Positions 2,017 through 42,453 of a DNA stretch of 42,453 nucleotides are shown here, piece after piece. The position numbers were made by a program, and so were the translations under genes. This DNA comes from Candidatus Altarchaeum sp. CG2_30_32_3053 (GTDB lineage Archaea; Altiarchaeota; Altiarchaeia; Altiarchaeales; Altiarchaeaceae). Every line of letters starts with the position of its first letter. Position 1 is the first letter of the stretch. The notes under the pieces are model-generated. The model made no database searches and was not told the DNA's origin. It saw nothing but the letters and a program-made list of their open reading frames with translations. The stretch covers positions 1 through 42,453 of the forward strand of contig MNZY01000237.1 in the NCBI GenBank assembly GCA_001873845.1. The letters are read 5' to 3'.

Positions 2017-2922
2017 ATGCGAAATAAAATTTTGTATATTTTGGAATTTTTGATTTGTTTTATGATTTTGGTTAATATCACAAGTGCAGAACAATGCAGA
2101 GATGTTACATATATTAAGGGAACAGTATATGTAGGTGAAAGTCCATTAAATAACGGAGTAATAGTTGCAAAGTGTGAGGGATACAACGATTCACAAGAGA
2201 ATATAAAAGATGGAATATATATGATAGTACCTTTTGTAAATGCAAATGGCTCTTCAAATGTTGCACTGGAAATTTATGTTAATAGTGCACTCGTAAAAAC
2301 AGTGTATGTTAAAATTAACAACTGTGGAGAAAAAAAAGAAGGTTTTAATATAAATATAGATTCTGCCTCATTGCAAAACAATCAGACCAACAATGTAAAC
2401 CAGTCCAGCACATCACAAGACAGCCAAAGCAGCACAAACCAATCTGCCTCATCACAAAATCAGCAAAACAATCAGACCAATAATGTAAACCAGTCCAACA
2501 CATCACAAGACAGCCAAAGCAGCACAAACCAATTTACCTCATCACAAAATCAGCAAAACAACCAAACTAATGTATCAAACCAATCTGCCTCATCACAAAA
2601 TCAGCAAAACAACCAAACTAATGTATCAAACCAATCTGTCTCATCACAAAATCAGCAAACCAATCAGACCGATGTATCAAAAATTAATATATCATATCAA
2701 CCTGGCACATCTTCAACAAATCAAACCAATGCTGCAAATGCGAATCAACCTGACACAGCACAAATCAACCAGACCGATGTACCAAATATAAACCAAGAAA
2801 ACCTCTCAAATCAATCTACTCTGTCACAAAGTACAGATCAATTTATAACTTATGGTTTGTACTTGATAATTATTATTTTATTAATAATTTTATTTATATT
2901 TTTAATCAGGCACAAGAAATAA
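2017..2922 (+). CDS. Secreted protein: small beta-rich N-domain, Q/N/S/T tandem-repeat stalk, C-terminal TM anchor
   Basis: 301-aa ORF. Signal-like N-terminus is ILYILEFLICFMILVNITSA|EQC. The low-complexity repeats are NNQTNNVNQSSTSQDSQSSTNQSASSQNQQ x2 then NNQTNVSNQSASSQNQQ x2-3. The C-terminus is YGLYLIIIILLIILFIFLIRHKK (TM plus basic tail). Confidence 0.8.
   Translation: MRNKILYILEFLICFMILVNITSAEQCRDVTYIKGTVYVGESPLNNGVIVAKCEGYNDSQENIKDGIYMIVPFVNANGSSNVALEIYVNSALVKTVYVKINNCGEKKEGFNINIDSASLQNNQTNNVNQSSTSQDSQSSTNQSASSQNQQNNQTNNVNQSNTSQDSQSSTNQFTSSQNQQNNQTNVSNQSASSQNQQNNQTNVSNQSVSSQNQQTNQTDVSKINISYQPGTSSTNQTNAANANQPDTAQINQTDVPNINQENLSNQSTLSQSTDQFITYGLYLIIIILLIILFIFLIRHKK
2374..2655 (+). repeat. 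In-frame coding tandem repeats: 2 x 90 nt then 2 x 51 nt
   Basis: Copies at 2374-2463 and 2464-2553 (period 90) and at 2554-2604 and 2605-2655 (period 51) are near-identical at nucleotide level. A degenerate continuation follows. Confidence 0.9.
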
Positions 2923-2930
2923 TTTATAAT

Positions 2931-3038
2931 TTAATTTATAATATTATTTAATTTATAAATGAGTATTACTAATTTATTCAATTTAATTTATAATATTATT
3001 TAATTTATAAATACTAATTTATTCAATTTAATTTATAA
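2931..3038. repeat. AT-only direct repeats in the intergenic region upstream of the 5585-aa gene
   Basis: ttaatttataatattatttaatttataaat occurs at 2931-2960 and 2983-3012. actaatttattcaatttaatttataa occurs at 2968-2993 and 3013-3038. Confidence 0.7.
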
Positions 3039-3157
3039 ATAATTTTAATTTAATTTATATATTTTAATTTAAAATTTATATATACTTTAATATAAATATA
3101 TTTTACTTTAATATAAGTTTTTAAATTTTATTCATCCGAAAATTTATCATTTAAAAA

Positions 3158-6100
3158 ATGTCAAAGACAAAATATATAAAGCAACGGAAAATTGTATATA
3201 TTATTATTTTTAGTATTATCCTGCTTTTTGGAGGTAATGATGTTTTTGCAGTTGACTACCCTAATGATGCACAATTATATCTAACAAATCAAACAAGTGT
3301 AAGTGCCATTTCTTCTTCATTTAAGGAGAACTTGAATAGGGTGTATGATCAATATCATGAATATGCCGATAAATTTTCTGCAGTAGATTTTACAAAGAAT
3401 GGTCAAAGTTACAGCAACGGAACTTTTATTAGCAATATTACTGTGCCTTTAAATATGGCAAACAATTTTTCTGTTGACCAAGCTTATGCGCCTCAAAAGC
3501 GAAATGTTTGTATATTCATGAGCAATGTGAAGGACGATTCACCTCAACACAATGAAGTTACCTATGGGCGGCTTCCTTTACAGGGCTTTGTTTCAAATTT
3601 TTTGGGTTTGGATTATACTTTGGTTACAGAAACAGATATTGCTAATGGAAATTTGAACAATTGTGATATGTTTTTAATTCCCGCAATTCAGCATGGTCCT
3701 TCTGATAATGTAACACAATGGATGGATCAAATTAAGGAAAACTTTACATCAACAGGATTAAACAATCTGAAAAATTTCGTTTTGAATGGCGGGTCAATAT
3801 TTGCTGAGAGTGATGGGATGTACATTTTGCAGATGGCAAATATTACAGCAAATAACACCATAAATTTGACTGATGATAACAGGTTATATGGATCCAGCAA
3901 TAAGGGATATATTCAATTTCAAAATTTTACAAATCCTGCTTCTTTTGGCTATAATGCTTCAAATGTTTCTTCTTATACAATTGGAGACCCACTAATAAAT
4001 TTGTCTGTTCCGGGTTCAAATTTAACTTCTATCGCAAATTTTTCCGGAAATCTGATGTATCCAAATGGAAGCGTAAATAGTTATGCAGGAACAGCAATGG
4101 CTTATAAGGATTATGGTAATGGAAGGGTTTATTTATCTGTTCCTCATTTAGCTTCTAATTATGAAACACAAAGAGCGTTGGCTTTTATTATCACGTATGG
4201 AATTTCTGAGAGAATGGAATTTGAAAGAAGCATAGAATTAACTGATCTGCCAAATTATTATGATGCAAATAATGTGCTAGTTATTCCTGCTTTGGAAGAA
4301 AACATAAATTTGACAGTAAGCGCATTGTTCGGAAATACATGGAATAAAACCTTAAATAATGTGCGCATGAGAATTAATATAAATCAAGAATTTCAATTAG
4401 ATCCAAATACAGATTTTTGTACTCAATTAAATTCATCAATATATCCAAATCCAACTTGTGCTGTTGTTGCACCATTATCCGGAACAAATTACATTGAGGT
4501 AAATTTTTCAACCTTGAATCCAGGATTGTTCAACGCCACATACAAAATTTCAACAAGAACGGGCAGTACTGGATTGACAAATATCGGAAATGTGACGATA
4601 AATTTTACGGATGTAAATGGACAAAACAGAGAGGTTTTTCAAGACAGAACTTATGTTAACGCGATGACAAGAGCAGATTTAAGGGTTGATAAAGATAGCG
4701 GTCTTCCAACCCCACTTGCCGCAGGTTCTAATTATAGTGCTTATATTGACATCGCGATTCAAAACAAAGGAGAAACACCTGCAATAAATGCAATAATTTC
4801 AGATATAATTCCAAATCAGATAAATGTAACTGTTAGAGATGAACAAGGAAATTGGAAGAATGTAACTGTAAATATAAGTGTTACTTGTCCTTCCGGATGG
4901 ACATCAACAAATGTTATGGTTTATAATTATAGCAATACACGCACAGGAGAAATTTATCCTGTAATTAACGCAACCAATTGTTCAACAATTATGAATGTTT
5001 CTCCTCATGATAATATTGACCCTATCGGAAGGGTAGATATTGTAGTTCATACGCCGCCAAGATGGTGGAGTGAAACATCTGACTGTACAAATAATCCTCC
5101 ATGTAATGATAATAATTGCACCTGGGTGAATATGAGTAATGTTACTGCTGGGGATTTTTTTCCGTTTAATTTGGGTGGAGAATTACACAACGATGCCACC
5201 GTCGGGCCATCAAACACTTCCAAGGTTGATTATAAAGATGTATGGGACAGGAATTACACATCTCCTTTGAGAGAATTGGTAGATAGACTATCAGTACATG
5301 GTCTGCCGAAAATTGGAAATAATATGACTGTAACAAAAAGTATATATATGATTCTACAAAATGGAAACGTGAGTGATGTTATGCCTGCGAACGGTACAGC
5401 AAATGTTACTATAGAAATAGCAATATATCCCAATAATTGTGTGCGTTATGATTACACAAATAGAAGTTGCAATTGCAGTGACGCAGGAAACAAAACAGCT
5501 TATTGTTATTCTGAGAGCAGTTTTGAAAATGCTACTTTAATATATTTGGAAGATACTATTCCAAAAGGAGTAAGTTATAGATTAAACATTACGGGAGTAA
5601 GTTTGTCACCACACCAAACACAAAATACACCTTTTTACACAATATACTCCTGGCAAAATTTAAGTGTCCCGTGTGGAAATGTTACAAAAATTTATATAAA
5701 CGCAACTTTAGAACCATTAGGGACTGACGGAGAACTTACAGTAAATAAAGGAGGTAGTTATATGTATTATGATGTAATGTTAGAAAGGGAGGTAGTTAAA
5801 TTACTTCCAATTGATTCAGTTGCTTCTGAAATTTCACAATTTTCAATTACAAAAGGAACGCATCCAAGTTTACTACCGCCCGGGGGACAGGGAAAACATG
5901 TTTATCATTCATTAGAAATTTATGATTCTCCCGAGATGCATCAATTTCCAGACCCTTATTATCATTCTTATGGATTTAGAAATGGAACTGTAAGAACATA
6001 CACAGGTGGAACATTACCTTATTCAACAACTACTTATCATTCCATAGTAAATGCTACAAATAATTTTACAATAATTCATCTGACATTTTCAAATACAGGA

Positions 6101-9100
6101 AATGAAACATGGAATATTTCTTCTTTGAACATTTCAAACATAACGATGAGGCATTTTCTTAATTCTCCGGATTTTTCATCAAATTTTAACATAACTCCAA
6201 ATTTTGATTTACCAATTATCATTGGACCGGGAAAAAATATAATGATTTATTTTAATGTTACTTATAATGGTTCTGTTCCGGCACAACAGATTTATGAGGT
6301 AAATTTTAATTTCAGCGCTTTGAATGTTCCGGAAAATTTTTCAATATCTCCTGCAAAAATTGGAGTTGGAAATTCTACAATTTATGATTATTATGATTAT
6401 GGAAGAAACATTATAATTAGCGATAAATTAAGGAGCGGGGTGGAATACGCATCTACAAAATACATTTACGGAGCGTGCCCGGCTGCTGTTAATGAGACAA
6501 ATTATAATAGCGCGCGTAATTTTAATTATTCTGAAAAAACCGGAAATGCACATGCAGGAACAAATATTACATGGAATCTTTCTGCTTTAGAACCATCATA
6601 TAACAATTCAGTAACACTGCCTTATGTTGTTAATGATTCCGGAACATTCATCACTCAGCCAAGGTTCTGCATTTTAATAGATTCTTTATGGCTTGGAGGC
6701 ACCACGGGAACATATCCTATAAATTTGGGTGCAAATGTAACTTATACTGATGATACATGGAATGAGGAAAAAAATGCTTCATCTAATGTCCCACACACAG
6801 ATCTTCATGGTCCTTTAATTAATGTCACAAAAAGAATAACTGATATTTATGTATTTATCCCTCCAGACAATTATTGCCAGTATATCTATCCTTATGATCC
6901 AAACAGACCAAATTTTACTGAACCGCACCCGAGAATTTCGTATAATATGACTTCTATGGTGTGTATGATGATTCATGTGAGAAATGACGGGGATGCAGTT
7001 GCATCAAATGTAACAATTACAGATGTTTTGCCGCCAAATTCCACTTACATTTACAATTCATTAAATTATCAAGGATGCACTCTTCCCTCGCCAAGGGATT
7101 CTTTTAGAATAGCGCCAAGTAGTATTAATAATGACACACCAAGTGAAAATTATACCGCCTTGAATTATTCCATTTCTGACATTGCTCCTGGTGGAACTGC
7201 CAAAATTTTGGTGTGCGTAAATGTAACTCCAAATGAGACAAATGGAATTGCTCCTGGTGATAATATAACTATTAATGAGCCGGTAAACGCTTCATTTATG
7301 TCGGATTTGTTTCCGGGTGATAAATTTAACACTTCAAATTATGAACAATTAAACGCGAGTTCAAATGAGACAATATTATCAATAAATAAAACAGCTTCTC
7401 ATAGCAGTATAAATGCTACAATTCCAACATTAATAAATTTAACCATAAATGTTACAAATATTGGATATGTGATGGCAGAGCATGTTTATATCATAGACGA
7501 TATTCCTTTATATAACAGCACTTATCAATATAGTGCTACTATAAATTGTGTTAAAGTTTATCTGCAAAATTCTTCTGGAATATATGAATCAAACAATACT
7601 TGTGATGATTATGGAGCAGGAGTAAGTGGAATTCGTGGACACATTCCTCATACAGGAAATATTGATGTGAACTACACATATTATGGAAGCTATACTACGG
7701 GAAATCAAGGACAGGATGGATACAAATATACTTTAAAATATGGGGTGTTGTCTAATCTGAGTGTTGGAGCTTCTTTTATTATTAATGTAACTTTAAATGT
7801 AACTATTAATCTTTCTGCGGAGAATTTTCAATTAAATTACAATCCGTTAACACGGGCAGATAATGCCACATTGAAAGAAGGCCCTACGGTTAGCGTTAAT
7901 GTTACTGTTTGGGGTCCAAGATTGAATATAAGTAAGGAAGTGAAGAAAATTTGTCCTCCTCCAATAGACAACACATGCGTTGCTGCTTGCAGTGACAGTG
8001 GCAGTGGCGATGGAACTTCATGGGAAAATGCAAAATGTTTGATTACAAATGATAATACAACAGAAAATAACATATCTGAAACCTCGAATACAAGCGACCA
8101 ATATTATAAATATGTTTTAGATGGTTGGAGTTATGTAAATATTACTTATGCTACAACCGCATTAACAGGCACACTTAATTTATATACTGATTGGAATGGA
8201 ACATACCCAAATTCAACTAATTTTGATTGCCACAAACAAATAGCATCAGGAGTACTTACATCTGTAAGTTGCATTTCTACAAGACCTTTGCCACCCGGAA
8301 CATATTATGTTCTAAGAAATCTTACTCCTAATGCCTCTGGGGTCAAGACGGTAACTGGAACAATATCCTTCAAAGCAACCTGTTATTCAGATCAATGCTG
8401 GAATAAAGGTTACATGATAGCAGACCAAGCAAATCCAAACAATACTATTGATTTACAATTTAATGTTTCAAACAATCTTCCCTGGCAAGAAGCAACTTTA
8501 ACTGCTTATAATGTGACAATTTATGATGAACTGCAAAATTTTGTTAAGGTATGGGATTTCAACAGATGGAATAATACTCCAAATAATACAAATATTCAGT
8601 ATATATGCACGAATGGAACAAATGGAACTTTAAACATAATTGAAAATAATAACAATTTGGATGAAGGAATCTTAAATTTTACTGTTGACAGTCAGGGATT
8701 AATGGAAAATTGTTCTCTGTTGTTTAATGTTTCTGTAACTTATGCTCCTCCGTGCGCTTCAAATGCGAGTCCGAATTATTCTGGACAAAATTACAGCAAT
8801 CCTTACTGGAATAATGCTTCAATTTATGATCAAACAAACCATAATTATATTTTAAATTTAAATCCACGGGTTAAAGCGCATTTTTTCGACTGGACCGAAG
8901 GAAATAATTTAACAGAAGAAGTTAGATGGAAAAAACCGTACTTTAATGTAACAAAAACAGCAAATACGAGTCAAGCAGAACCAGGGGATTATGTAAATTT
9001 TACAATTAACATTACAAATACAGGAAATTCAACTATTTATGAATTAACAGTTGATGATACTCTTCCAACAGGATTTGAATACATCAGCTATTCGACAATA

Positions 9101-19945: not shown

Positions 19946-19947
19946 AA

Positions 19948-26358: not shown

Positions 26359-26367
26359 AAATAAAAA

Positions 26368-26432: not shown

Positions 26433-26609
26433 CAAAATTTAATTAGTAATTGGTTGATTGTAATACAAAAAAATAAATAACTATTCAAAAAGTGCTAAAC
26501 GTATCAATGAAAATTTCAAAAAAATACATGAACGAAAAGGGTGTAAGAATCAAAAATTTAAAAATTCATTATAAAATAAATTTAACAAAAAAATTTAAAA
26601 ATTTTTAAA

Positions 26610-35600: not shown

Positions 35601-38168
35601 ACAGTAACCTACAATGCCACTGCAGCAGGTAAAACAAATACGAGTTGTCCATCAATGATCGGAAATGGCAATGTAAGCACTTGTTCAATAACATCTACCG
35701 GGACAGTAATACTTACAAAAACAGCAAATGTGTCTTATGTTCAACCAGGTGAAAGTATAAATTACACTATAACCATCAATAATACAAATGCTGATGTAAA
35801 TATGACAAATATTGTTATTGAAGACATACTGCCACCAGGATTTACTTGTAATAATGTTACAGGATATAGTGGATGTGATTGTGATAATATAACAAATTCA
35901 AATTGTAATCTTGGAAATGGAAATAAGACAATCAACATAATTGCGACTGTTAACAGCAGTGCAAATAACAACACAGCATACAACAATGCAACAATTACCT
36001 ACAATATTACAAGTTTGCCAACAACACAAGAAGGTCAACCTATTACAGTTAGCCAGCACACAACAGTATTCAAACCAGATCTTGGGGTATGGAAAAATAA
36101 CAACATGACGAATATAACGGGAAACAATGTTGCAAATGATGATATGAATGTAACCTATACAATAGTTGTTGTAAATAACGGAGGGGGCGATGCAAAAAAT
36201 GTAACTGTTGAGGATGTGTTACAATCTCCACTTTATCATATAACCGGAGTGGAGAGTGTGGAATGTACAGGCAATACCACATCAGTTACAGTAACTAACA
36301 CATCAGTTGGAACCAATGAAATGAACTTCACATTTAATAGCATAGAAAACGGAACAAAATGTAAGATAACATATAAAGTAAATGTGCCAAGATTTACTAA
36401 TACCTTAACATACACTAATAATGTTACGATAGTGAATGGAACATTTGCAAACGACGAACCTTTGACGGCTGATGAAGGCATAAATAAGACGGACACTTCT
36501 AACTTAATAGTAGCGGGCAAATATGTACATATCTGTCAATTTACCTATTCACAAGGTCCAAATAGTCAAAGTGTTTTTCATATCAAGGCAAAAGTGACAG
36601 AAGACATCTCGGATCAACAAATAACAAATACAGTAAGAGTTAACGGAACCCTAAACAAAGGAACATCTGGGGAAATACCATTATATGCTGAATCCACAAA
36701 GTCGGTCAATTTGGAAAATCCAAATGTAAGCATAGTTAAATGGGCAGATACAGCTGATATAGAGCCGGGACAGGAAGTAACATTCTATGTGCAAATACAG
36801 AATCCATCTGAGACAAATCTGATAAATTTGAGTATTAAAGATATATTGCCAAAGGGTTTTGAATATGTGCATAATAGCAGCAAATTAGAGGGGCAACTGT
36901 TTAATGAATCAAACAGTGCGATATTCAATGTTACTCCAGAAATTTATAATGAATCAAATAACAATACACAGCAAAATATAACCTGGAATGTTAGTAATTT
37001 ATTGCCAAAGACAATTAAACTATTGACTTTCAAAGCAAAGGTAAAATGTAATATTACAGAAGGAGAAAAGAATACAAACAACGTTTGTATTAATGGAACA
37101 ACACACGATGATGAAAGAGTTGGAGCATGCACGAACTACACGATGACAGGACACCTTGCACACCTAACAATAAACAAATATGCTGACAAGGATAAAGTGA
37201 AATGGTTTGATGTTGTTGAATATACTATAGCAATTAAAAATCCAGCGCTTGGTTCCGCTCATTCCATATTGAAAGAAATAAATGATACAATGGCAAAGAA
37301 TTTGAAGTATATCAATAATTCTGCAACAATCAATGGAGAGGTAATTGAACCACAAATTATTGGAAACTACACCGATGGAACAACATTGATATGGAACGGT
37401 TCAAAGATAAATGATACAGCTGTCTGGGTTGGAACAAAGGTTGTTTTGAAATACAGGGTTTTGATAATGCCAGGCTTAAACGGAATCCTTGACAATAATG
37501 TATCATTGGAATACTATGACCCCTTGCCGGGGCACTTTGATCCAGAAGCAGTGTTTAAGGCATCATTTAGAAGTGCCATAGTAAGAGACGGATATGCGCC
37601 AAAACAAAATATTGTTTCAAGCGGAAATGTGAATCTGTTCCTCGGAGATGAGATAAATACACCTGTGACAACTACTACTACAATACACCTGAAACAGGGA
37701 TGGAATTTGATTTCATTACCAATTCAACCGGAGGATACAAATATAGATATGGTTTTGAATAGCATAAAAGGCAAATATACGGATGTGTTCGCTTATGAAG
37801 ACAGATGGGTTTACAAGAGCGAATATATGAATAAGTGGTTTGGCGATTTGAGTAAATTAGAGGCTGGAAAAGGATACTGGATTAAGGTCAACGAAGATTG
37901 CAGTTTAACAATTAACGGAATTATAGCCAAGAGTGCGAATATATCTTTGAAGCAAGGATGGAATTTGGTTGGACCATTGGCAACAACAGGAAAAAGTATT
38001 TCATTGGACAACCTCAATGTGCAATATACAGATATATTCACTTATGAAGACAAATGGGTTTACAAGAGCGAATATATGAACAAGTGGTTTGGCGATTTGA
38101 ATAAATTAGAGGCCGGAAAAGGATACTGGATTAAAGTTGAGAACAATGAGGAGCAGCTTGTTATGTGA
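26610..38168 (+). CDS. Giant (3852 aa) secreted DUF11-repeat surface protein with ~265-aa two-domain super-repeat and C-terminal twin module; alternative start at 26808
   Basis: 11.6-kb ORF. Met67 (ATG 26808) begins a classic signal peptide, MIGYRTSLKLGGIFALIVGLIFIFSAVNVSA|GG. The next segment, CCCYAGSCLNEINDTANVS, aligns with the start of the mature 2118-aa protein. Many units resemble IRPGQDVNYTITVKNTGGGTAYNISIRD and AQPGDSINFTINVTNNGGNTVYNIKVDDILPYGF. Confidence 0.95.
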   Translation: MDRKNLLKGNDFFGNLKNSGILALVVIGVVLMFLMSSLMFLASGLNRILNFNKNNINLLKNFKIYKMIGYRTSLKLGGIFALIVGLIFIFSAVNVSAGGCCCYAGSCLNEINDTANVSAANAYLKVDKFVDKDIVQVGDTVGYTIIVRNLGNTTAYDVTVNDTLPIDISSVTLGDINYIYNINGNGEIPTCQFLSTTNNESGKVLYCKINKIPKKDETGANVTIFFGAKVTQHTNAPINHTNNVSVNGFYTPCSDTNGNILKEDGTCPCTNLTNCNQVYGVSDIATVQTDQDGSNGYNGLRDNATVWIVGIDVTKYATTNSTLQAGDEVVFHITITNTGDLQVCNITVHDRLPSALEFVDSSPENSSPVTGRDVYFNLGCLNGSLSTTINITTKVSTAATTLSSLSNFVEVNGTVYNASGNATDINVTDDYTTPPQYFDNETGTNQTPQIGKATLSLNKIAMDPWTRPNREIKYRVEVDTGGAMVYGAQITDHLPGAFQYMNNIIQLNDGECTPNSTTSSNSTGEVIFNLGNFTGKCIFEYTVYVPWNTKDGYYRNNQTLTANDKNNQTLANVTDNAPVIVDGNTRLTVNKDVVNPRIFQPNDIIEYTLTVSNEGDNEIHDVNVTDLIPYGMNYSSSWLEGGNVYIPGYDEAAIGSPACQITSQTCNTTHCNVTVGCCNNEIYTYNDIPNGTSQTGSASCTNYNVSCNNSNPPSCTISNSSTSTVQIIGDLKYTDPSKGYKAIWHFDIIGAKTTKVIHLNLTITSDSVGGSSMNKVEVTGITPNGDVLLWKDIASSARIGKANLLIEKSSDTATIAAGEEVTYTIRVKNIGEGYAQNITIKDEPGSQMQLGAISMASCNGGSLLSEKYEGGPATNYGDSVTYILKNVSLAPGKECVINYKAYTASTSQEGLYVNKATLNWRDMFGTEQMALSTTAAVMILPPDALMSIRKQSNATRAQPGEKLNYTITIENKGNETLRDVIINDTLPDGFKNLSQAYWGNFNCSNMPNGTCVRDINSDKSNYTGEGIGGFTTVTLSIEAIVTSNTTEGLNTNKVTITAKRPSGTPVKGSSSHILQVNKPHISITKWASTTMREPGQNVTFYIEVKNTGAGDAKNITITDDATPFEHIGNVSVVSGDCTVNKSGDGNITTFWINDNGTFNAYKTCIFKYLMKVPANTPDGTYTNNASLSYQDLNNTEFSKSAGTDVLVTINLFPDVEKIANDTSLQPGDRVNFTINVRNYGSATMTNGTVTDTLPPGFRCLNASGITNGINCSCVNDTTAICNLTDLVGNTISNPLSMWVEAKVNGSATEGSNENNVSLNGTRPDGLPINRTTEAKVFVNEPKPQLEIYKWTDTIKATPNSTVIYYILVKNTGDGDVYNLTINDTMDFGSITNYSTIPNGSADCNTSTKSCNISHLSSAGQCQIKLIALINENATDGTHNNTVNVSGFMKGGTEINKTKLNDTESINVEADVKLTVTKKANTTEVNAGDNVTYTVIVRNDGVNRVMVNVTDNAPLGFTCVNKTPNESVWINGNSLETFTFECNVNSSATQGNNTVVVNGVAENNQTFDANGTTTIVLNTPKLEIIKEAVTGTVEQNGIATYKIIVRNTGTAPVKNISITDRGDGGGGTFTTALGGPSLDTAASTGCTGVNSGGLYLSNSSPHYHEVNFTTNGTMNPGQQCVFTYTLTVNSTAQIGNYTNNATITGAYHPVDNSSYTPTPEPKDNATIRVIPQMNVSFTKTGNATAEPGQSVTFTINITNNNAGANMTDVVFNDTLPDGFNCTSNSTQRIPANTGPNINCSCDGRQINCNIETIENSSTVIINITADVNSSAELSSTNRANVTYNVTNTTLITSEASHTVTILKPQLSVLKENNATGVIRPGQDVNYTITVKNTGGGTAYNISIRDVLDDGLTHTSVSNISCNGLTNSSTGTNAIDFNISSLANNSNCKFNITVHVPEQVNNSVFGNTINITDAQFGDGTHLNSTYGIGENATSDITVQAFTNVSVVKSANPTSAQPGDSINFTINVTNNGGNTVYNIKVDDILPYGFNPNCTTLSPHNYCNCNESTRKINCTFPNSTVLSVISANVTVNSSANPLSTNTANVSYDLPNGTTQQTDNPGQTTVTVNKPNLTIQKTPNNPKASRDQNISFEIRIKNIGTGTAHNILIQDVLPSANMRHISNGTNVSGCSQSIIIANPLNTNTTTFTLDNLTAGQECIFNYTVYIDENISDGNYTNIATITGGKFGDDSYMDSSYGNNSNSNATVEVTTTIIPSIEKIPYNDKMQPGDTINFTIIIKNNGNNDWKNVAVKDVLPAGFIYNNTINVTPSTGGYTNITYNSTTRELNYTGVTVPKFGNWTVIVVANVTSGASSPSTNRVNASSPDNRSVATVATVVVDKPALIVSKEPLLLTYLPGDNATYRIKITNTGTGDAFNVTMEDAFADLKFYHNGNESISIAHCGTNNNTNVSITSGNGTNSAIFALNDTLAGQENCEFTYTVRVDERHEDGLYANNAKVNSTMGDGTKLPVAEDSAQVLIKADVSMRVTKTSNATDQKVNAGDYINFTITVYENGNSPIYDVNVSDTVPYGCVVTNVTNNSNVNGSWDGRNVNFIIGKINNRSHVDLNITCYINHSMTKGWNTNSVRVVAKKPNGDEIYGSASTQIRMLLPDISWTKESLNKTILAGQKVTYKIKVTNKGDGTAHNLTIVDYLPKGDEGNWTYASGTNINDSCGYNWNATNVSNDGNIVKFFLDKMNGSENPAGTECAFTFEVQIPHGTTSVMYANTIGGNWSYGDINNNTPKATNYISNQTPGESNVYVYAGGGIIIQKESDKEVYQYGDIINYTITVYSNGIPTTNLTVTDVIPKGLRLTECPGSAKTEPSASSPTTPFIDFANNSFNYSITNTLIAKLSAVNNNTNIQENDTVLWTANITNDAVSNATMTNVTLVYSFGNDLNVTMNTTSQGTCTRNNDTQVTCNIGDIALGNTVQVNITTNATNNTSVNGTPTVTYNATAAGKTNTSCPSMIGNGNVSTCSITSTGTVILTKTANVSYVQPGESINYTITINNTNADVNMTNIVIEDILPPGFTCNNVTGYSGCDCDNITNSNCNLGNGNKTINIIATVNSSANNNTAYNNATITYNITSLPTTQEGQPITVSQHTTVFKPDLGVWKNNNMTNITGNNVANDDMNVTYTIVVVNNGGGDAKNVTVEDVLQSPLYHITGVESVECTGNTTSVTVTNTSVGTNEMNFTFNSIENGTKCKITYKVNVPRFTNTLTYTNNVTIVNGTFANDEPLTADEGINKTDTSNLIVAGKYVHICQFTYSQGPNSQSVFHIKAKVTEDISDQQITNTVRVNGTLNKGTSGEIPLYAESTKSVNLENPNVSIVKWADTADIEPGQEVTFYVQIQNPSETNLINLSIKDILPKGFEYVHNSSKLEGQLFNESNSAIFNVTPEIYNESNNNTQQNITWNVSNLLPKTIKLLTFKAKVKCNITEGEKNTNNVCINGTTHDDERVGACTNYTMTGHLAHLTINKYADKDKVKWFDVVEYTIAIKNPALGSAHSILKEINDTMAKNLKYINNSATINGEVIEPQIIGNYTDGTTLIWNGSKINDTAVWVGTKVVLKYRVLIMPGLNGILDNNVSLEYYDPLPGHFDPEAVFKASFRSAIVRDGYAPKQNIVSSGNVNLFLGDEINTPVTTTTTIHLKQGWNLISLPIQPEDTNIDMVLNSIKGKYTDVFAYEDRWVYKSEYMNKWFGDLSKLEAGKGYWIKVNEDCSLTINGIIAKSANISLKQGWNLVGPLATTGKSISLDNLNVQYTDIFTYEDKWVYKSEYMNKWFGDLNKLEAGKGYWIKVENNEEQLVM
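37683..38165 (+). other. C-terminal twin module of the 3852-aa protein
   Basis: IHLKQGWNLISLP...GKYTDVFAYEDRWVYKSEYMNKWFGDLSKLEAGKGYWIKVNEDC... then ISLKQGWNLVGP...YTDIFTYEDKWVYKSEYMNKWFGDLNKLEAGKGYWIKVENN. The second copy starts at 37941. Confidence 0.85.
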
Positions 38169-38201: not shown

Positions 38202-38273
38202 AAATTTTTTCTTTTTCTGTTTCTTTTTATTCTGTAGAAATTTTAATAAATTTTTAAAATAGGATTTTATGAA

Positions 38274-39557
38274 ATGAATAAATTTTTTTTATTGGGAGTT
38301 TTAATAGTTTTATCTTTGCTTATGCAAGAGATATCAGCAGAATGTAATGCAACAGTTTGGGGAAAAATTGGCTTTTCTGGATGTAATAACAGTGCGGCAA
38401 TAAATGCAACAATCCAAATAATGAGCGGATTCAAACTATTAAATTCCACACAAACAGACGAAAATGGAATTTATAACACAAGTATTTCTTTTAACGGCAC
38501 ATCAAAAAACATAAGTATAAGAATGATGAAAAAGAACGAAATAAAAACATATTATGACCTCACAATTAATTGTGAGGATAATATTTCTAAAAATCACTCT
38601 ATTATTAAAGAACCAATACAATATTTTAGCGGGAATATTAAAATGATTGACAACGGTGATTTTAAAGATATTAATGAAACAGACAAAGTAGAAGTAGAAG
38701 TACATTTAAAACTTATTTTAGAGGATAGTAAAAATGTTAATGCGTCAGAAAGTATAAATTCTACCATAACAAGCAAGGGCAGTTATACTTATCGACTATC
38801 CCCAAATAGTTTTTATTGTTCTTGGCCAACAAAATTATATTTATGGGCAGAGCCAACAGAAAATTATTATTATAGAATATTTGATTATGAATATTTTGTT
38901 GCTATCAATTCTTCAAATTATACATCATTAGCAATTTGCAGCTATGATCATAATCCAATAACAAAAGATTTTATCAGATTTCCGCGAAAAAGTGTCAATG
39001 ATAACTGCAGTTACATTGATGAATGCAAAAGCAATATTTGTAATCAAATTTCTCACACATGCCAATGTACGAGCAATTCAGATTGTGCAGATAGTCAGAT
39101 TTGCAATGCAACAAAACAATGTCAAAATTTAATTTGTTCACCACCAAATGGAAGTGTTTATAATCATACCTGTGTGAATTGCACAGATAATGCAACTTGT
39201 GGAGAGCAATTTTGTAATTTAACTGTACATGCTTGTCAACCAATATATTGCACAGGAGATGATTTATGTCGCAGTAATCAAATTTGTTGTAATACAACAA
39301 TGATACATCATCAATGCAAAAATTTGCATTGCTTTGACAATCAGAGGGCATTTAATCATACATGTGTTAATTGCAGTTCATTTGATTTTGATAATAATAA
39401 CATAACAGATATTTTTGATGCTGTTTATCTTTTAGAATATATTAGTGGCGAAAAAAAAGACATTTCACCAGACATTTCACCAGGATGCGCAGATGTCGAC
39501 AATAATGGAATCGTTGATTTATTTGATGCAGCATATATTTTATATTATTTATTATAG
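38274..39557 (+). CDS. Secreted modular protein: CarboxypepD_reg-like N-domain, Cys-rich knot repeats, C-terminal dockerin
   Basis: 427-aa ORF. The signal peptide is FFLLGVLIVLSLLMQEISA|EC. TQTDENGIYNTSISF is typical of carboxypeptidase-regulatory-like beta-sandwiches. The Cys-rich repeats include DECKSNICNQISHTCQC, SDCADSQICNATKQCQNLIC and others. The dockerin at the C-terminus is listed separately. Confidence 0.85.
   Translation: MNKFFLLGVLIVLSLLMQEISAECNATVWGKIGFSGCNNSAAINATIQIMSGFKLLNSTQTDENGIYNTSISFNGTSKNISIRMMKKNEIKTYYDLTINCEDNISKNHSIIKEPIQYFSGNIKMIDNGDFKDINETDKVEVEVHLKLILEDSKNVNASESINSTITSKGSYTYRLSPNSFYCSWPTKLYLWAEPTENYYYRIFDYEYFVAINSSNYTSLAICSYDHNPITKDFIRFPRKSVNDNCSYIDECKSNICNQISHTCQCTSNSDCADSQICNATKQCQNLICSPPNGSVYNHTCVNCTDNATCGEQFCNLTVHACQPIYCTGDDLCRSNQICCNTTMIHHQCKNLHCFDNQRAFNHTCVNCSSFDFDNNNITDIFDAVYLLEYISGEKKDISPDISPGCADVDNNGIVDLFDAAYILYYLL
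39381..39554 (+). other. Dockerin-type module (two EF-hand-like Ca-binding loops, each followed by a helix)
   Basis: DFDNNNITDIFDAVYLLEYI and DVDNNGIVDLFDAAYILYYL both place D/D/N/D/D at loop positions 1, 3, 5, 9 and 12, as in the type I dockerin consensus D.N.DG.V...D...L. The two loops are separated by a 17-residue linker at the extreme C-terminus. Confidence 0.75.
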
Positions 39558-39564
39558 TTTTTTT
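39558..39564 (+). terminator. T7 run immediately after the stop codon
   Basis: tag is followed by ttttttt. Oligo-T termination is plausible, but the context is AT-rich. Confidence 0.3.
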
Positions 39565-39636
39565 AATTTTATAAAATATAAATTTAGTAATAATTTTTAA
39601 AATTATTTGTTGTATATTTTAATTAATTATATTAAG

Positions 39637-42453
39637 ATGGATAAAAAAATTTTATTTATAGGTTTAGTAATAATTATTGTGGCACACATATACTCAGTAT
39701 CGGCCGACAATTGTTCTGCGACAGTATCCGGAAATGTAAATTTTTATGGACAAAATAACAGTGTGGCAATAAATGCAACGATACAAATAATTAGCGGATT
39801 CAACATATTAAATTCCACACAAACAGACGAAAATGGATTTTATAACACAAGTATTTCTTTTAGTGGCACATCAAAAAACATAGCCATAAAAATGATAAAA
39901 GAAGGAGCTTATAGTTCAGAGGGAAAAAATTATACTTGGATCATTGATATGAATAATATGGCTTCAATTAATTGCAGTGATAATATTTCTAGAAATTATT
40001 CTATTGAAAAGTGTTTATCAGCAATTCCTTATAAAGGATCTATCAAATACGAAAACTTTGATAATATTTATGAAAAAGATGATGGAGATGAAGTAAAAAT
40101 ACATTTAGCAGCGATTCCAAGAGACAGTGGAGGAATATATATAGAAGATACAAATTTTACAAAGACGGATGAAAATGGTTCTGCTTATGTTCTATCCACA
40201 GATACATACACTTTTTGGCCAATGAATTTATATCTATGGGCAGAGCCAACAAAAAATTATTATTATAGGATATTTGATGAGGATAATTTTGTTGCCATCA
40301 GCTCTCCAAATTATACATCTTTAGCGAGTTGTAGTTCGTCTACTACAGATATAACAAAGAATTTTATAAGATTTTCAAGAAAAAATACAAGCGATAACTG
40401 CAATTATGATGATGAATGCAAAAGTAATATATGTTATAATGGAAATTGTGCATCATCAAAGAAAAATATTAATGAAACATGCGCATCAAATGATGAATGT
40501 TCAAGCAACAATTGCAACAATTACAGCCACAGATGTCTTCCAAATATAACAAATTTCTGCTACAGTGATAATGATTGCTGCAATTCATCTTCATTTAATG
40601 ATGGCTTATGTAATTTAATTCAGTTCTGTAACAGCACAAATTTCTGTCAAAACGCCATGTCAAATTCAAATGTTTCAAATTCAAATATAACTGATGGAGC
40701 AATTGTAAGTAATTCAACAATAAACAAGTCAAATGTTAATAATTCCATAGTAAATCATTCTACATTGATATACTCAATGATAAAGAACTCAACAGTAAAC
40801 AATTCAAGCTTATACGCATCAGTTGTATTAATAAGCAGCATTACAAACAATTCAGCATTATATAACTCCACAGCAAACAATTCAATAATAAGTAACTCAA
40901 CAGTACAAAATTCAAACATAGCTAATTCGTCTGCATTAAATAGCACCATTACAAACAATTCAGCATTTTATAATTCAACAGCAAACAATTCAATAATAAG
41001 TAACTCAACAATTGCTAATGCAACAATAACACATTCTCAACTTACAAATTCAGCATCAGTCAATTCATTAATTAACAATTCCTTTACTAATAATTCAATA
41101 GTAAATAATTCAATAGTAAATAATTCAATAGTAAATAATTCAACAATAACCGAACAATCAGTCCTTTACAATTCAACCATCAACACTTCAAACCTTACTG
41201 ATTCAAATGTTTCAAATTCAAATATAACCGAAAATTCAACACTTTACAATTCAACAATCATAAATTCAAATTTGATTGATAGTAATGCATCAAATTTAAC
41301 TGCAAGCAATTCGCATATGACAAATTCAACAATCGTCAATGCAACAATATTAAATTCTCAACTTACATATTCAACATCAGTCAATTCATCAATTAATAAT
41401 TCCTTTATTAATAATTCAGCAGTAAATAATTCATCAGTAAATAATTCAACAATAACCGAACAATCAATCCTTTACAATTCAACCATCAACACTTCAAACC
41501 TTACTGATTCAAATGTTTCAAATTCAAATATAACAAACGAAGCAAGTGTAAGTAACTCAACAATAAATAATTCAGAATTATATAACTCCACAATAGGAAA
41601 TTCAATAATAAACAACTCAACCGCGTCTGTTTCAAATGTTTCAAATTCAACTATAACCGAAAATTCAACCTTTTACAATTCAACAATTGCTAATTCAGAA
41701 ATATTAAATTCTCAACTTACAAATTCAACATCAGTCAATTCATCAATTAACAATTCCTTTACTAATAATTCAATAGTAAATAATTCATCAATTATTAGTT
41801 CAGAAATATCAAATTCATCACTTCCATCCGGATTAAACATTACCCACGCAATAATAAATAACAACATTATAACAAGCGGAAATGTAATAACCGCCGATGG
41901 AACAAATGTAACAGTAAATGTAAAAACATCTGGAACTTACATAAACGGAACATTTTACAATAATACTTATGCTATAATTTATCAAAATGGTACAGTTGCT
42001 ACTGTTGCGCCGTTGCAAGGAAACAACATAACCGGCTCAACTATTGATAACATTTCAAGCATTGGCAATTCAAATGTTACCTATTCAAATGTGACAAATT
42101 CAACTATAAGCAATTCAAACTTAGATAACTCAACGGTAAATAATTCAATTGTAACAAACGGTTTAGAAGTAAGTAATTCAACTATAAGTGATTCAAATGT
42201 AAACAATTCAACTGTAACCGATTCAAATATTTCAAATTCAAATATTACAGATTCTACATTAGATAATTCAACTACAGGCAATTCAACAATTGCTAATTCA
42301 GAAATATTAAATTCTCAACTTGCAAATTCAGCATTAGTCAATTCATCAATTAACTATTCCTCTATTAATAATTCAATAGTAAATAATTCATCAGTAAATA
42401 ATTCAGCAATAACAGAACAATCAATTCTTTACAATTCAACCATCAGCACTTCA
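39637..42453 (+). CDS. Partial (>=939 aa, 3' end outside the window) secreted paralog of the 38274 gene, with a long N-S-x-[ILV] pentapeptide-like solenoid in place of the dockerin
   Basis: It is not in the ORF track because no stop is reached. I translated it codon by codon from ATG 39637 to 42453 (2817 nt, 939 codons) and found no in-frame stop. The N-terminus MDKKILFIGLVIIIVAHIYSVSA|DNCSATVSGNVNFYGQNNSVAINATIQIISGFNILNSTQTDENGFYNTSISFSGTSKNI aligns closely with the 38274 product. Confidence 0.85.
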   Translation, partial: MDKKILFIGLVIIIVAHIYSVSADNCSATVSGNVNFYGQNNSVAINATIQIISGFNILNSTQTDENGFYNTSISFSGTSKNIAIKMIKEGAYSSEGKNYTWIIDMNNMASINCSDNISRNYSIEKCLSAIPYKGSIKYENFDNIYEKDDGDEVKIHLAAIPRDSGGIYIEDTNFTKTDENGSAYVLSTDTYTFWPMNLYLWAEPTKNYYYRIFDEDNFVAISSPNYTSLASCSSSTTDITKNFIRFSRKNTSDNCNYDDECKSNICYNGNCASSKKNINETCASNDECSSNNCNNYSHRCLPNITNFCYSDNDCCNSSSFNDGLCNLIQFCNSTNFCQNAMSNSNVSNSNITDGAIVSNSTINKSNVNNSIVNHSTLIYSMIKNSTVNNSSLYASVVLISSITNNSALYNSTANNSIISNSTVQNSNIANSSALNSTITNNSAFYNSTANNSIISNSTIANATITHSQLTNSASVNSLINNSFTNNSIVNNSIVNNSIVNNSTITEQSVLYNSTINTSNLTDSNVSNSNITENSTLYNSTIINSNLIDSNASNLTASNSHMTNSTIVNATILNSQLTYSTSVNSSINNSFINNSAVNNSSVNNSTITEQSILYNSTINTSNLTDSNVSNSNITNEASVSNSTINNSELYNSTIGNSIINNSTASVSNVSNSTITENSTFYNSTIANSEILNSQLTNSTSVNSSINNSFTNNSIVNNSSIISSEISNSSLPSGLNITHAIINNNIITSGNVITADGTNVTVNVKTSGTYINGTFYNNTYAIIYQNGTVATVAPLQGNNITGSTIDNISSIGNSNVTYSNVTNSTISNSNLDNSTVNNSIVTNGLEVSNSTISDSNVNNSTVTDSNISNSNITDSTLDNSTTGNSTIANSEILNSQLANSALVNSSINYSSINNSIVNNSSVNNSAITEQSILYNSTISTS
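40660..42453 (+). repeat. Coding 15-nt (pentapeptide) periodic repeat array with ~100-nt higher-order repeats, interrupted at ~41815-42040
   Basis: The AATTCA (Asn-Ser) hexamer recurs about every 15 nt. gtaaataattcaata appears twice in exact tandem from 41101, and a third copy matches in its first 12 nt. Long near-identical blocks lie at 41134-41229 and 41440-41535 (period 306), with a partial copy at 42397-42453. A second block family starts near 41009, 41327, 41686 and 42286. Confidence 0.9.

What the first reader, a model, noticed from the sequence alone, without database searches (positions are those of the whole stretch)
2017..42453. 40-kb co-oriented array of giant secreted repeat proteins and small modular partners: candidate undescribed cell-surface or attachment apparatus
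From 2017 to the window end every gene is on the + strand and every product starts with a signal-peptide-like segment. Three ORFs of 5585, 2118 and 3852 aa take up about 82% of the window. They share DUF11-type repeat chemistry and an identical-architecture C-terminal twin module. Downstream lie two small paralogs whose C-termini are a dockerin and a glycan-sequon solenoid, and upstream lies a membrane-anchored Q/N/S/T stalk protein. No enzyme, transporter, regulator or housekeeping gene interrupts the array. Fibre-like giants with a common terminal module and a dockerin-bearing accessory together suggest an assembled extracellular structure (adhesive fibre, host-attachment organelle or scaffold) rather than independent adhesins. 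I know of no described system with this composition, but I cannot search.
Basis: partly seen in the sequence, partly recalled or inferred. Interest (0 to 1): 0.85.

Follow-up and report, generated by a model that had tools for sequence, protein, structure and literature searches.

The report
Giant archaeal surface-fibre gene cluster
This stretch of the subsurface archaeon Candidatus Altiarchaeum encodes three giant, sugar-coated, internally cross-linked fibre proteins and three smaller surface partners; most parts are known adhesin building blocks, but the shared end-piece belongs to a very large domain family that has no name yet.

Summary
From 2017 to the window end there are six co-oriented genes for exported proteins, and three giants (5585, 2118, 3852 aa) fill 82% of the window.

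**Source:** Candidatus Altiarchaeum, Crystal Geyser lineage.

**The giants:** they are fibrillar-adhesin-type proteins. Each has a signal peptide and then 13 to about 26 CLIPPER/DUF11 Ig-like domains. In 42 of the 43 fully aligned domains the Lys-Asp-Asn isopeptide triad of PDB 9IFR is intact. N-glycosylation sequons are 2-3 times enriched.

**The shared C-terminal twin module:**
- It is real and folds confidently (pLDDT 93.8).
- It has no Pfam, NCBIfam or PDB counterpart.
- It belongs to a family of about 39,000 clusters in anaerobic bacteria and archaea, nearly always at a protein terminus.
- It is more conserved than the stalks.

**The smaller proteins:** S1 (dockerin, borderline score) and S2 share a head that resembles CnaB-type adhesin domains. 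S2 is really 1930 aa, with a pentapeptide solenoid and a C-terminal membrane anchor.

**Conservation:** the order giant, then S1, then S2 is kept in three other Altiarchaeum assemblies. Tandem CLIPPER giants ending in the twin module also occur in distant Altiarchaeales.

**What is missing:** no cohesin, no hamus-type S_layer_N domain and no known anchor signal was found.

**Verdict:** a new variant of a known kind, namely an adhesin cluster. An assembled apparatus is possible but not shown.

The parts
2017..2922 (+). p301: signal peptide, about 90-aa beta-rich head, Q/N/S/T tandem-repeat stalk (21 N-X-S/T sequons), C-terminal transmembrane helix and RHKK tail; a type-I membrane surface protein
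   Evidence: Sequence; sequon counts. Tandem repeats of 51 and 90 nt lie at 2373-2681. Alleles of 284 and 301 aa occur in different samples. The head is homologous to a 312-aa protein with the same architecture that lies next to the S2-like gene in GCA_017973835.1 (pairwise E = 8e-12).
3158..19915 (+). G1, 5585 aa: signal peptide, about 755-aa orphan head, about 26 CLIPPER/DUF11 domains with inserted modules, C-terminal twin module
   Evidence: Pfam results; repeat map. The head has a single homolog in 5.8 billion proteins (P0142, MSI Altiarchaeum, 80% identity) and no Pfam or PDB hit.
13883..16855 (+). Region of G1 with three modules nested inside CLIPPER domains (aa 3576-3749, 3934-4064, about 4392-4566); candidate carbohydrate-binding modules
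   Evidence: The middle module hits Pfam PF21254, a beta-agarase/YXIM galactose-binding-like domain (30.7 bits against a cut-off of 27). The outer two are homologous to each other (27% identity, E = 5e-9) but have no Pfam hit.
19397..19912 (+). Twin C-terminal module of G1
20002..26358 (+). G2, 2118 aa: signal peptide, Cys-rich N-terminal peptide (ECASPACCGVC), 13 CLIPPER domains, about 160 aa unassigned, twin module (25876-26355)
   Evidence: An internal duplication is 93% identical at the DNA level (22136-22407 against 24287-24555).
26610..38168 (+). G3, 3852 aa as an ORF (probable start at nt 26808): signal peptide, GGCCCY motif, about 25 CLIPPER/CLIPPER_2 domains, twin module (37677-38165)
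   Evidence: Orthologs lie directly upstream of S1-like genes in L092, L093 and L095 (stalk 54-76% identical, twin module 80-87% identical).
38274..39557 (+). S1, 427 aa: signal peptide, about 235-aa two-lobed beta-sandwich head, Cys-rich knots, C-terminal dockerin-like domain (39381-39554)
   Evidence: Dockerin evidence: Pfam Dockerin_1 at 20.4 bits, below the cut-off of 22.9; PDB dockerins 8x39 and 4uyq at E = 3e-4 to 2e-3. AF2 model of the head has pLDDT about 76-92. Foldseek matches it to CnaB-type adhesin and pilin domains (SdrD, streptococcal pilins, TIE protein) with probability about 1.0 but TM-scores of only about 0.2. The family has only 9 clusters.
39637..42453 (+). S2, cut by the window end (1930 aa in full): signal peptide, head paralogous to that of S1 (51% identity), Cys knots, about 1000-aa N-X-S/T pentapeptide-type solenoid. 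Beyond the window: Ig-like domains, CGDGICD repeats, transmembrane helix and a Lys/Glu-rich tail
1347..2016 (.). 670-nt non-coding gap upstream of the cluster, holding a perfect palindrome at 1590-1612; a possible regulatory region, function untested

Best explanation
The region is a cell-surface gene island specific to Candidatus Altiarchaeum (Crystal Geyser lineage, called A. crystalense in recent papers). It encodes long adhesive fibres and their likely surface partners.

**Shown**
- G1, G2 and G3 have Sec-type signal peptides.
- Each has a stalk of 13 to about 26 CLIPPER/DUF11 Ig-like domains.
- The Lys, Asp and Asn that form the intramolecular isopeptide bond in the solved CLIPPER domain are conserved in nearly every complete copy.
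- N-glycosylation sequons are 2-3 times more frequent than the amino-acid composition predicts.
- G1 additionally carries an orphan 755-aa head and three nested modules, one of them galactose-binding-like.
- All three giants end in the same compact two-lobed beta module.
- S1, S2 and p301 carry small beta-sandwich heads. S1 and S2 share one head type (CnaB/transthyretin-like by Foldseek); the p301 head shows no detectable similarity to it. S2 and p301 sit on long glycosylated spacers ending in a C-terminal membrane helix. S1 ends in a dockerin-like Ca-binding domain.

**Inferred**
- After export and glycosylation the stalk domains lock themselves with isopeptide bonds. This would give protease- and force-resistant fibres of roughly 50 to over 100 nm.
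- These fibres would mediate attachment to surfaces, matrix glycans or other cells.
- The twin module would be the conserved binding or retention end. It would hold the fibres to a common partner: an envelope or matrix component, each other, or one of the co-encoded small proteins.
- S2 and p301 would be membrane-tethered, and S1 would dock non-covalently.

Whether the six proteins form one structure or act side by side is not decided by the data.
For: **Source organism.** The upstream PmbA and DedA genes on the same contig are identical to NCBI proteins of Candidatus Altiarchaeum hamiconexum MAGs. Contigs come from JGI 3300025875 and 3300025035 and from many ENA assemblies.

**CLIPPER stalks.**
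- Pfam E-values run from 1e-35 to 1e-200.
- 68 repeat hits were mapped.
- In an alignment of 28 copies, K8 and D43 are invariant and N104 is at least 90% conserved.
- The profile aligns to 9IFR (E = 6e-10). K, D and N fall on the 9IFR residues that I map to K715, D748 and N806 from the construct numbering.
- 42 of the 43 fully aligned copies keep the triad.

**Glycosylation.** Sequons occur at 3.9-11.6 per 100 aa, against 1.7-5.8 expected from composition.

**Twin module.**
- AF2 gives pLDDT 93.8 and pTM 0.89.
- The family has 39,451 representative clusters.
- Most of the 102 ORFs carrying it in 80 loci end within 10 aa of the module.
- Elsewhere it is attached to subtilases, PKD/TIG, CARDB and S-layer_C proteins, and it lies upstream of T9SS sorting domains.
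- It is more conserved than the stalks: 58-64% against 25-40% between paralogs, and 80-87% against 54-76% between orthologs.

**Smaller proteins.** The S1 head gives Foldseek matches to adhesin and pilin domains. S2 has a membrane anchor.

**Synteny.**
Against: - No experimental or expression data were found for these genes.
- No known anchoring signal is present on the giants: no PGF-CTERM, LPXTG, T9SS domain or transmembrane helix. How they stay on the cell is therefore inferred, not shown.
- The ligand and function of the twin module are unknown. It has no structural neighbour in the PDB (best E = 0.05, TM about 0.2). Its occurrence on enzymes, as a stand-alone protein and at N-termini fits a generic binding module as well as an anchor.
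- G2 and G3 have no recognised adhesive domain.
- The G1 head is an orphan of unknown fold.
- Altiarchaeum has two membranes (PMC4460559). How giants of 230-600 kDa would cross the outer one is not explained.
Confidence: 0.6

Rival explanations
1. One assembled apparatus. The giants would be held on the cell by the co-encoded small proteins. S2 and p301 would be membrane-anchored bases, S1 an adaptor docking through its dockerin, and the shared twin module the common plug that fits all three giants onto the same socket.
For: - The order giant, then S1, then S2 is conserved in three further Altiarchaeum assemblies, and a p301-like gene is linked in one.
- The twin modules are much more conserved than the stalks, as expected for a shared interface.
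- S1 and S2 share a head but differ in their mode of attachment.
- There is precedent: the grappling hook GhpA of Aureispira is a giant Ig-repeat protein whose anchoring proteins are encoded next to it.
- In Desulfobacteraceae, small twin-module proteins lie next to large PKD-repeat proteins.
Against: - No cohesin or other recognised receptor domain occurs in any cluster protein.
- S1 and S2 are confined to one genus (9 clusters), whereas CLIPPER giants with twin modules occur in distant Altiarchaeales. The short flanks available there show no S1 or S2.
- The twin module occurs on thousands of proteins in organisms that lack S1, S2 and p301.
- No interaction was tested.
Confidence: 0.25
2. Independent paralogous adhesins. 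The giants would arise by tandem duplication and act separately. S1, S2 and p301 would be unrelated surface proteins that happen to sit in the same variable 'surface island'.
For: - G1 and G3 stalks are 40% identical and their twin modules are 75% identical at the DNA level, which indicates duplication.
- The island continues with another secreted protein, one with a vWA domain, beyond the window.
- The intergenic regions are very AT-rich (3-13% G+C), with T-runs and TATA-like sequence, so each gene may have its own promoter.
- Repeat copy number varies among samples.
Against: Gene order is conserved across species-level divergence, and the shared terminal module is under extra constraint.
Confidence: 0.3
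3. Hook or hamus-type appendage. The giants would multimerise through their twin modules into multi-stranded fibres. These would be, or would contribute to, the hook-like appendages of the Crystal Geyser lineage, for which no S_layer_N hamus homolog was found.
For: - Bird et al. 2016 report no S_Layer_N hamus homolog in the Crystal Geyser genome CG_SM1, although hook-like appendages were seen (personal communication cited in PMC4975002).
- The best PDB match of the stalk-repeat profile is GhpA, the 5898-aa grappling-hook protein that forms a glycosylated heptameric Ig-repeat stem (E = 2.7e-10).
- Three giants share one terminal module.
Against: - Purified hami consist of one major protein of about 120 kDa, with an S_layer_N domain, encoded elsewhere.
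- None of the window proteins has S_layer_N, NosD or FKBP_C.
- The match to GhpA is generic CLIPPER-domain homology.
- The same cluster also exists in the MSI population, which has the classical hamus gene.
- I estimate the fibres at 50-150 nm, far shorter than hami.
Confidence: 0.07
4. Interaction or shield layer. A dense, variable glycoprotein coat would mediate contact with the episymbiont Candidatus Huberiarchaeum, or mask virus receptors.
For: - The Crystal Geyser Altiarchaeum carries an episymbiont, and both populations are under virus pressure.
- Sequon density is extreme.
- Length polymorphism in the repeat regions occurs among samples.
Against: The cluster is also present in the MSI population, for which the transcriptome paper names no episymbiont. 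There is no direct evidence of either role.
Confidence: 0.1

Closest known systems
CLIPPER/DUF11 fibrillar adhesins (Pfam PF01345; solved domain PDB 9IFR from Acinetobacter silvestris B9T28_05395; bioRxiv 10.1101/2025.04.25.650565 = PMC12617251)
   Same: - A signal peptide followed by long tandem arrays of the same Ig-like domain.
- The Lys-Asp-Asn isopeptide triad is conserved.
- The survey notes that such arrays occur in archaea, usually without recognisable neighbouring domains. That is the situation here.
   Different: - The characterised example ends in an OmpA-like anchor and has a CshA-type adhesive head.
- Here the terminus is an unannotated twin module and the G1 head is an orphan.
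- Here three such genes are in tandem with conserved small partners, and the proteins are densely N-glycosylation-sequon-rich.
GhpA grappling hook of Aureispira (PDB 9flp; bioRxiv 10.1101/2024.01.29.577165)
   Same: - A giant secreted protein (5898 aa) with an N-terminal functional module and a long glycosylated Ig-repeat stem that includes CLIPPER-type domains.
- Its anchoring partners are encoded next to it.
- It is the best PDB sequence match of the repeat profile.
   Different: - GhpA is a bacterial T9SS substrate with a Por_Secre_tail sorting domain and PorP/PorE-like anchors, and it forms a heptamer.
- None of these features is present or testable here.
- The homology is limited to a few Ig-like domains.
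Giant1-5 cluster of Apilactobacillus kunkeei (PMC12863079)
   Same: Consecutive co-oriented genes for extracellular proteins of 3000-8000 aa that take up a large share of a small genome. The proteins have elongated repeat structures, and the genes show recombination and length variation.
   Different: That cluster is bacterial and has N-terminal beta-solenoid binding domains and different repeats. It has no CLIPPER stalks, no twin module and no dockerin partner.
Cohesin-dockerin assemblies (cellulosome type)
   Same: S1 ends in a duplicated Ca-binding loop-helix segment that matches type I dockerins.
   Different: No cohesin was found in the cluster, there are no glycoside hydrolases, and the dockerin score is below Pfam's cut-off.
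Hami of Candidatus Altiarchaeum hamiconexum (PMC4460559, PMC4975002)
   Same: The same genus; a surface structure made of beta-rich, glycosylated, Sec-exported protein.
   Different: The hamus subunit has an S_layer_N domain (plus NosD and FKBP_C) and is encoded on another contig. None of these domains occurs in the window.
Terminal surface-retention or binding modules such as SLH domains and CBMs
   Same: The twin module behaves like these. It is a compact module found at the N- or C-terminus of very diverse exported enzymes and structural proteins, and sometimes stands alone.
   Different: There is no sequence or fold similarity to any of them, its ligand is unknown, and it spans both archaea and diderm bacteria.

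Membership tests
CLIPPER / DUF11 domain (PF01345) | Pfam score above the gathering cut-off (24.6 bits) | tested here: met
   G1 scores 120.9 and 237.7 bits (two halves), G2 265 bits and G3 653.5 bits.
CLIPPER / DUF11 domain (PF01345) | Lys-Asp-Asn triad at the positions that form the isopeptide bond in 9IFR | tested here: met
   K8 and D43 are invariant and N104 is at least 90% conserved in 28 copies. These residues align to the 9IFR triad. 42 of the 43 fully aligned copies keep the triad. Bond formation itself was not tested.
Fibrillar adhesin (stalk, adhesive domain and anchor, as in Monzon et al., PMC9210967) | Signal peptide and tandem stalk repeats | tested here: met
Fibrillar adhesin (stalk, adhesive domain and anchor, as in Monzon et al., PMC9210967) | A recognised adhesive domain | tested here: inconclusive
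   G1 has one galactose-binding-like module (PF21254, 30.7 bits against 27) and an orphan head. G2 and G3 have none.
Fibrillar adhesin (stalk, adhesive domain and anchor, as in Monzon et al., PMC9210967) | A known cell-surface anchor (LPXTG, OmpA-like, T9SS domain, PGF-CTERM or a transmembrane helix) | tested here: not met
   No such Pfam or NCBIfam hit, and no C-terminal hydrophobic segment, in G1-G3. The terminus is the unannotated twin module.
Cohesin-dockerin system | A dockerin domain | tested here: inconclusive
   Pfam Dockerin_1 scores 18-20.4 bits, below the cut-off of 22.9. Solved dockerins match at E = 3e-4 to 2e-3, with both Ca-loop repeats aligned. The AF2 model of this region has pLDDT below 50.
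Cohesin-dockerin system | A cohesin partner | tested here: not met
   No cohesin hit in any window protein or in full-length S2. The rest of the genome was not searched.
Hamus subunit of Altiarchaeum | S_layer_N N-terminal domain (with NosD and FKBP_C in the 1808-aa form) | tested here: not met
   None of these Pfam families was hit in the window.
Pentapeptide-repeat proteins | Pfam Pentapeptide score above the cut-off, with five-residue periodicity | tested here: met
   Pentapeptide_3 scores 29.7 and 31.6 bits against a cut-off of 27. Tandem DNA periods of 15 and 30 nt are present.
GhpA-type grappling hook | T9SS C-terminal sorting domain and PorP/PorE-like anchors | tested here: not met
   No Por_Secre_tail in the window proteins. 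The same tool does detect that model in bacterial twin-module proteins.
GhpA-type grappling hook | Multimerisation of parallel Ig-repeat strands | not testable with these tools
   No multimer prediction or imaging was available.

The most novel reading that the evidence does not exclude
The twin module would be an oligomerisation and docking plug. Through it the three giants, alone or as a G1/G2/G3 hetero-assembly, would join into multi-stranded, glycosylated, isopeptide-locked fibres. These fibres would be mounted on the membrane-anchored S2 and p301 proteins, with S1 as a dockerin adaptor.

That would be an archaeal counterpart of bacterial grappling hooks. It might also be the genetic basis of the hook-like appendages of the Crystal Geyser Altiarchaeum, which lacks a classical hamus gene. 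As a by-product, the twin module would define a new, very widespread assembly domain shared by archaea and bacteria.
Probability: 0.1. Interest if true: 0.85.

Novelty: new variant of a known kind. Interest (0 to 1): 0.5.

Why it matters
- **The organism.** Altiarchaeum is a dominant carbon-fixing archaeon of the terrestrial subsurface. It is known for its unusual surface (double membrane, hami), yet only the hamus subunit has been tied to a gene. This cluster gives concrete, conserved candidates for further surface structures. It predicts isopeptide-stabilised, N-glycosylated fibres in an archaeon.
- **The twin module.** The work also exposes a confidently folding terminal module with about 39,000 sequence clusters and no entry in Pfam, NCBIfam or the PDB. 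Finding its ligand would annotate a very large number of secreted proteins in anaerobic bacteria and archaea.
- **If the proteins do assemble.** That would be a second, independent route to a grappling-hook-like organelle.

Tried and rejected
- **Hamus identity: rejected.** The hamus subunit is an S_layer_N protein on another contig, and no such domain is in the window.
- **Cohesin partner: not found**.
- **Twin module as a known domain: no.** There are no Pfam or NCBIfam hits beyond weak partial ones: Agglutinin PF07468 at 18-25 bits over about 40 of 154 positions, seen only in the Altiarchaeum copies, and DUF4811. There was no PDB sequence hit at E up to 1 and no Foldseek PDB neighbour. One BFVD hit to a marine phage 'putative hemin binding protein' (TMq 0.62) is probably just another family member.
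- **Twin module as a sorting signal: unlikely.** It also occurs directly after signal peptides at N-termini, as a stand-alone protein, and upstream of genuine T9SS sorting domains.
- **G1 head:** one homolog only and no Pfam or PDB hit. It was not modelled because no useful alignment exists.
- **Structural check of the S1 dockerin: failed** (pLDDT 31-40).
- **p301 head against the S1/S2 head:** no detectable similarity beyond the signal peptide.
- **Conserved neighbour of twin-module genes across 80 loci:** only generic T9SS-tail and PKD-repeat proteins recur.
- **RNA genes:** no tRNA and no Rfam family in the window.
- **Motif search in papers:** nothing found for GWNLIS, GYWIK and related strings.
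- **Genome scan:** it did not return the source species itself. Its best hits were at 40-41% identity, so synteny in close relatives had to be obtained through S1 homologs.
- **Downstream extension:** only about 1 kb was gained.

Full report
**Observation.** The window is AT-rich (26-35% G+C). From 2017 onward it carries six co-oriented ORFs:
- p301 at 2017-2922;
- G1 at 3158-19915 (5585 aa);
- G2 at 20002-26358 (2118 aa);
- G3 at 26610-38168 (3852 aa);
- S1 at 38274-39557 (427 aa);
- S2 from 39637, running off the end.

The giants fill 81.7% of the window. Every product starts with a basic and hydrophobic segment that ends in an Ala-X-Ala-like site. There are no tRNA genes and no Rfam families. 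The same genes occur with nearly the same lengths in many independent assemblies from ENA and JGI, so they are not assembly artefacts.

**Source.** On longer contigs the cluster is preceded by DedA and PmbA/TldD genes. Their products are identical to NCBI proteins of Candidatus Altiarchaeum hamiconexum MAGs. The JGI samples and the literature point to the Crystal Geyser lineage, now called A. crystalense.

**The giants.**
- Pfam finds DUF11, renamed CLIPPER, far above threshold in all three, together with the related CLIPPER_2/DUF7507.
- A repeat HMM built from the window maps about 26 (G1), 13 (G2) and 25 (G3) copies laid end to end.
- A 2025 survey solved a CLIPPER domain (PDB 9IFR). It showed an intramolecular Lys715-Asn806 isopeptide bond, catalysed by Asp748, that gives heat and protease resistance.
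- In 28 aligned window copies the corresponding Lys and Asp are invariant and the Asn is at least 90% conserved.
- The repeat profile aligns to 9IFR with these residues in register.
- 42 of the 43 fully aligned copies keep the triad.
- N-X-S/T sequons are 2-3 times more frequent than composition predicts, as expected for N-glycosylated archaeal surface proteins.

G1 has extra features:
- an N-terminal head of about 755 aa with no Pfam or PDB match and a single homolog, from the German MSI Altiarchaeum;
- an unassigned 354-aa insert;
- three modules nested in CLIPPER domains. One passes the Pfam model for a galactose-binding-like domain, and two are homologous to each other.

G2 and G3 begin, after the signal peptide, with a short Cys-rich peptide. 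The G3 ortholog starts at the second hydrophobic segment, so the real G3 start is probably Met67.

**The twin module.**
- All three giants end in a unit of about 165 aa made of two similar halves, with the motifs GWNLIS.P and G.GYWIK.
- With a 57-sequence alignment AlphaFold2 gives pLDDT 93.8 and pTM 0.89, so the two halves form one compact unit.
- Foldseek finds nothing similar in the PDB (best E = 0.05, TM about 0.2).
- Sequence profiles find nothing in the PDB, Pfam or NCBIfam beyond weak partial hits.
- The family is nevertheless very large: 39,451 representative clusters at E up to 1e-3, and 19,693 at E up to 1e-10.
- In species-representative genomes it occurs in Desulfobacterota, Ignavibacteria/Bacteroidota, Omnitrophota, Cloacimonadota, CPR bacteria, ANME-1, Methanosarcinales, Methanoperedens, DPANN archaea and Altiarchaeales.
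- In most of the 102 ORFs that carry it, it lies within 10 residues of the stop codon.
- It also occurs directly after the signal peptide, as a stand-alone secreted protein, and upstream of a Por_Secre_tail sorting domain in T9SS phyla.
- Its passengers include subtilases, PKD/TIG, CARDB and S-layer_C/propeller proteins.
- It therefore behaves as a promiscuous terminal binding or retention module, not as a sorting signal.
- Within Altiarchaeum it is clearly more conserved than the stalks: 58-64% against 25-40% between paralogs, and 80-87% against 54-76% between orthologs.

**The smaller proteins.**
- S1 and S2 share a head of about 235 aa (51% identity). It models with moderate to high confidence. 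Foldseek matches it to CnaB/transthyretin-type domains of Gram-positive adhesins and pilins, although TM-scores are only about 0.2.
- S1 continues with Cys-rich knots and a C-terminal segment that has two Ca-loop/helix repeats. Pfam Dockerin_1 is just under threshold (20.4 bits against 22.9). Solved dockerins match at E = 3e-4 to 2e-3. The model of this part is unreliable.
- S2 is 1930 aa in full. It has the head, Cys knots, about 1000 aa of sequon-rich pentapeptide-type repeats (Pfam above threshold; 15- and 30-nt DNA periodicity), Ig-like domains, CGDGICD repeats, a transmembrane helix and a Lys/Glu-rich tail.
- p301 is a small type-I membrane protein with a beta-rich head on a Q/N/S/T repeat stalk. 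The stalk varies by one 17-aa unit between samples.

**Conservation.**
- S1 has only nine relatives, all apparently from Altiarchaeum.
- In assemblies GCA_017973955.1 and GCA_000821205.1 (the MSI genome; two contigs that are near-identical strain variants), the S1-like gene is flanked upstream by a CLIPPER giant ending in a twin module, orthologous to G3, and downstream by an S2-like gene. In GCA_017973835.1 the contig begins at the S1-like gene, so only the downstream S2-like neighbour is seen.
- In GCA_017973835.1 the S2-like gene is followed by a 312-aa protein with the p301 architecture and a homologous head.
- In the distant Altiarchaeales WOR_SM1_SCG and A3, tandem CLIPPER genes are found. 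In WOR_SM1_SCG both giants end in twin modules; in A3 one does, and the next gene is cut by the contig end. The short flanks show no S1 or S2.
- Downstream of S2 in the source organism the next gene again encodes a secreted protein, one with a vWA-type MIDAS motif.
- So the window shows part of a larger surface-protein island whose borders are not established.

**Interpretation.** The best-supported reading is a cluster of giant fibrillar-adhesin-type proteins with conserved small surface partners. The stalk chemistry and its likely consequence (covalently locked, protease- and force-resistant fibres, glycan-coated, roughly 50 to over 100 nm by my estimate) rest on homology to a solved and biophysically tested domain. 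The role of the twin module as the common binding or retention end is inferred from its position, its promiscuity and its extra conservation.

It gains support from synteny and from the precedent of GhpA. GhpA is the best PDB match of the stalk profile. It is a 5898-aa Ig-repeat protein that heptamerises into a glycosylated grappling hook, with its anchor genes adjacent. But no receptor for the dockerin or the twin module was identified, and no interaction could be tested.

Identity with the hami is rejected for the classical hamus subunit, which is an S_layer_N protein encoded elsewhere. A role in the hook-like appendages reported for the Crystal Geyser lineage, which lacks that gene, remains a low-probability possibility.

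**Novelty and score.** CLIPPER fibrillar adhesins, including archaeal ones, and tandem giant surface-protein genes are already described. This is therefore not categorically new. Four things are new:
- the combination found in this well-known but genetically opaque archaeon;
- the conserved giant/S1/S2 unit;
- the unannotated but very widespread twin module;
- the orphan G1 head.

I rate it a new variant of a known kind, with interest 0.5.

Noticed in passing
window 2373-2681: Tandem repeats of 51 and 90 nt encode the Q/N/S/T stalk of p301. Alleles of 284 and 301 aa (one 17-aa unit) occur in different samples. S2 (1883 or 1930 aa), G3 (3849-3855 aa) and G1 (5585 or 5587 aa) also vary in length between assemblies.
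   Followed up: partly
window 26610-26810: The first 66 codons of the G3 ORF are probably not translated. The MSI ortholog starts at the second hydrophobic segment, which gives a normal signal peptide and a mature N-terminus of GGCCCY. G2 has a comparable Cys-rich N-terminal peptide (ECASPACCGVC).
   Followed up: partly
window 1347-2016: A 670-nt non-coding gap lies upstream of the cluster. Its G+C content (23%) is higher than that of the other intergenic regions (3-13%). It holds a perfect palindrome, ACAAAATGTTC-A-GAACATTTTGT, at 1590-1612. No Rfam match.
   Followed up: partly
window 2923-3157 and 26355-26447: These intergenic regions are extremely AT-rich (6-13% G+C) and contain direct repeats of 38-45 nt. 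They may be promoter or terminator elements of the archaeal type, which the consensus scanner does not cover.
   Followed up: no
L097 12926-13963 (downstream of S2 in the source organism): The next co-oriented gene encodes a signal peptide, an Ig-like region and the start of a vWA domain (MIDAS-like DLSNSM). The secreted-protein island therefore extends beyond the window.
   Followed up: partly
L034 9581-14406 (Desulfonema magnum), also L030 and L038: In Desulfobacteraceae a protein of about 300 aa, made of a signal peptide plus a twin module, lies immediately upstream of large surface proteins. These are PKD/Big_9-repeat proteins in L034 and L030, and a TSP3-repeat protein in L038. This hints that twin-module proteins partner with fibrous proteins elsewhere too.
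   Followed up: partly
window 167-1346: Two small membrane-protein genes (259 and 136 aa) overlap by 11 nt. They have no family assignment in Pfam or NCBIfam and are conserved upstream of the cluster in all contigs of this population.
   Followed up: no
window 19397-19912, 25876-26355, 37677-38165: Only the Altiarchaeum twin modules give weak, partial Pfam hits to the amaranthin-type Agglutinin domain (18-25 bits, about 40 of 154 profile positions). Other family members do not. This is a faint lead to a lectin function and is probably a motif coincidence.
   Followed up: partly
window 22136-22407 and 24287-24555: A recent internal duplication in G2 (93% identical at the DNA level) yields two nearly identical CLIPPER domains.
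   Followed up: no
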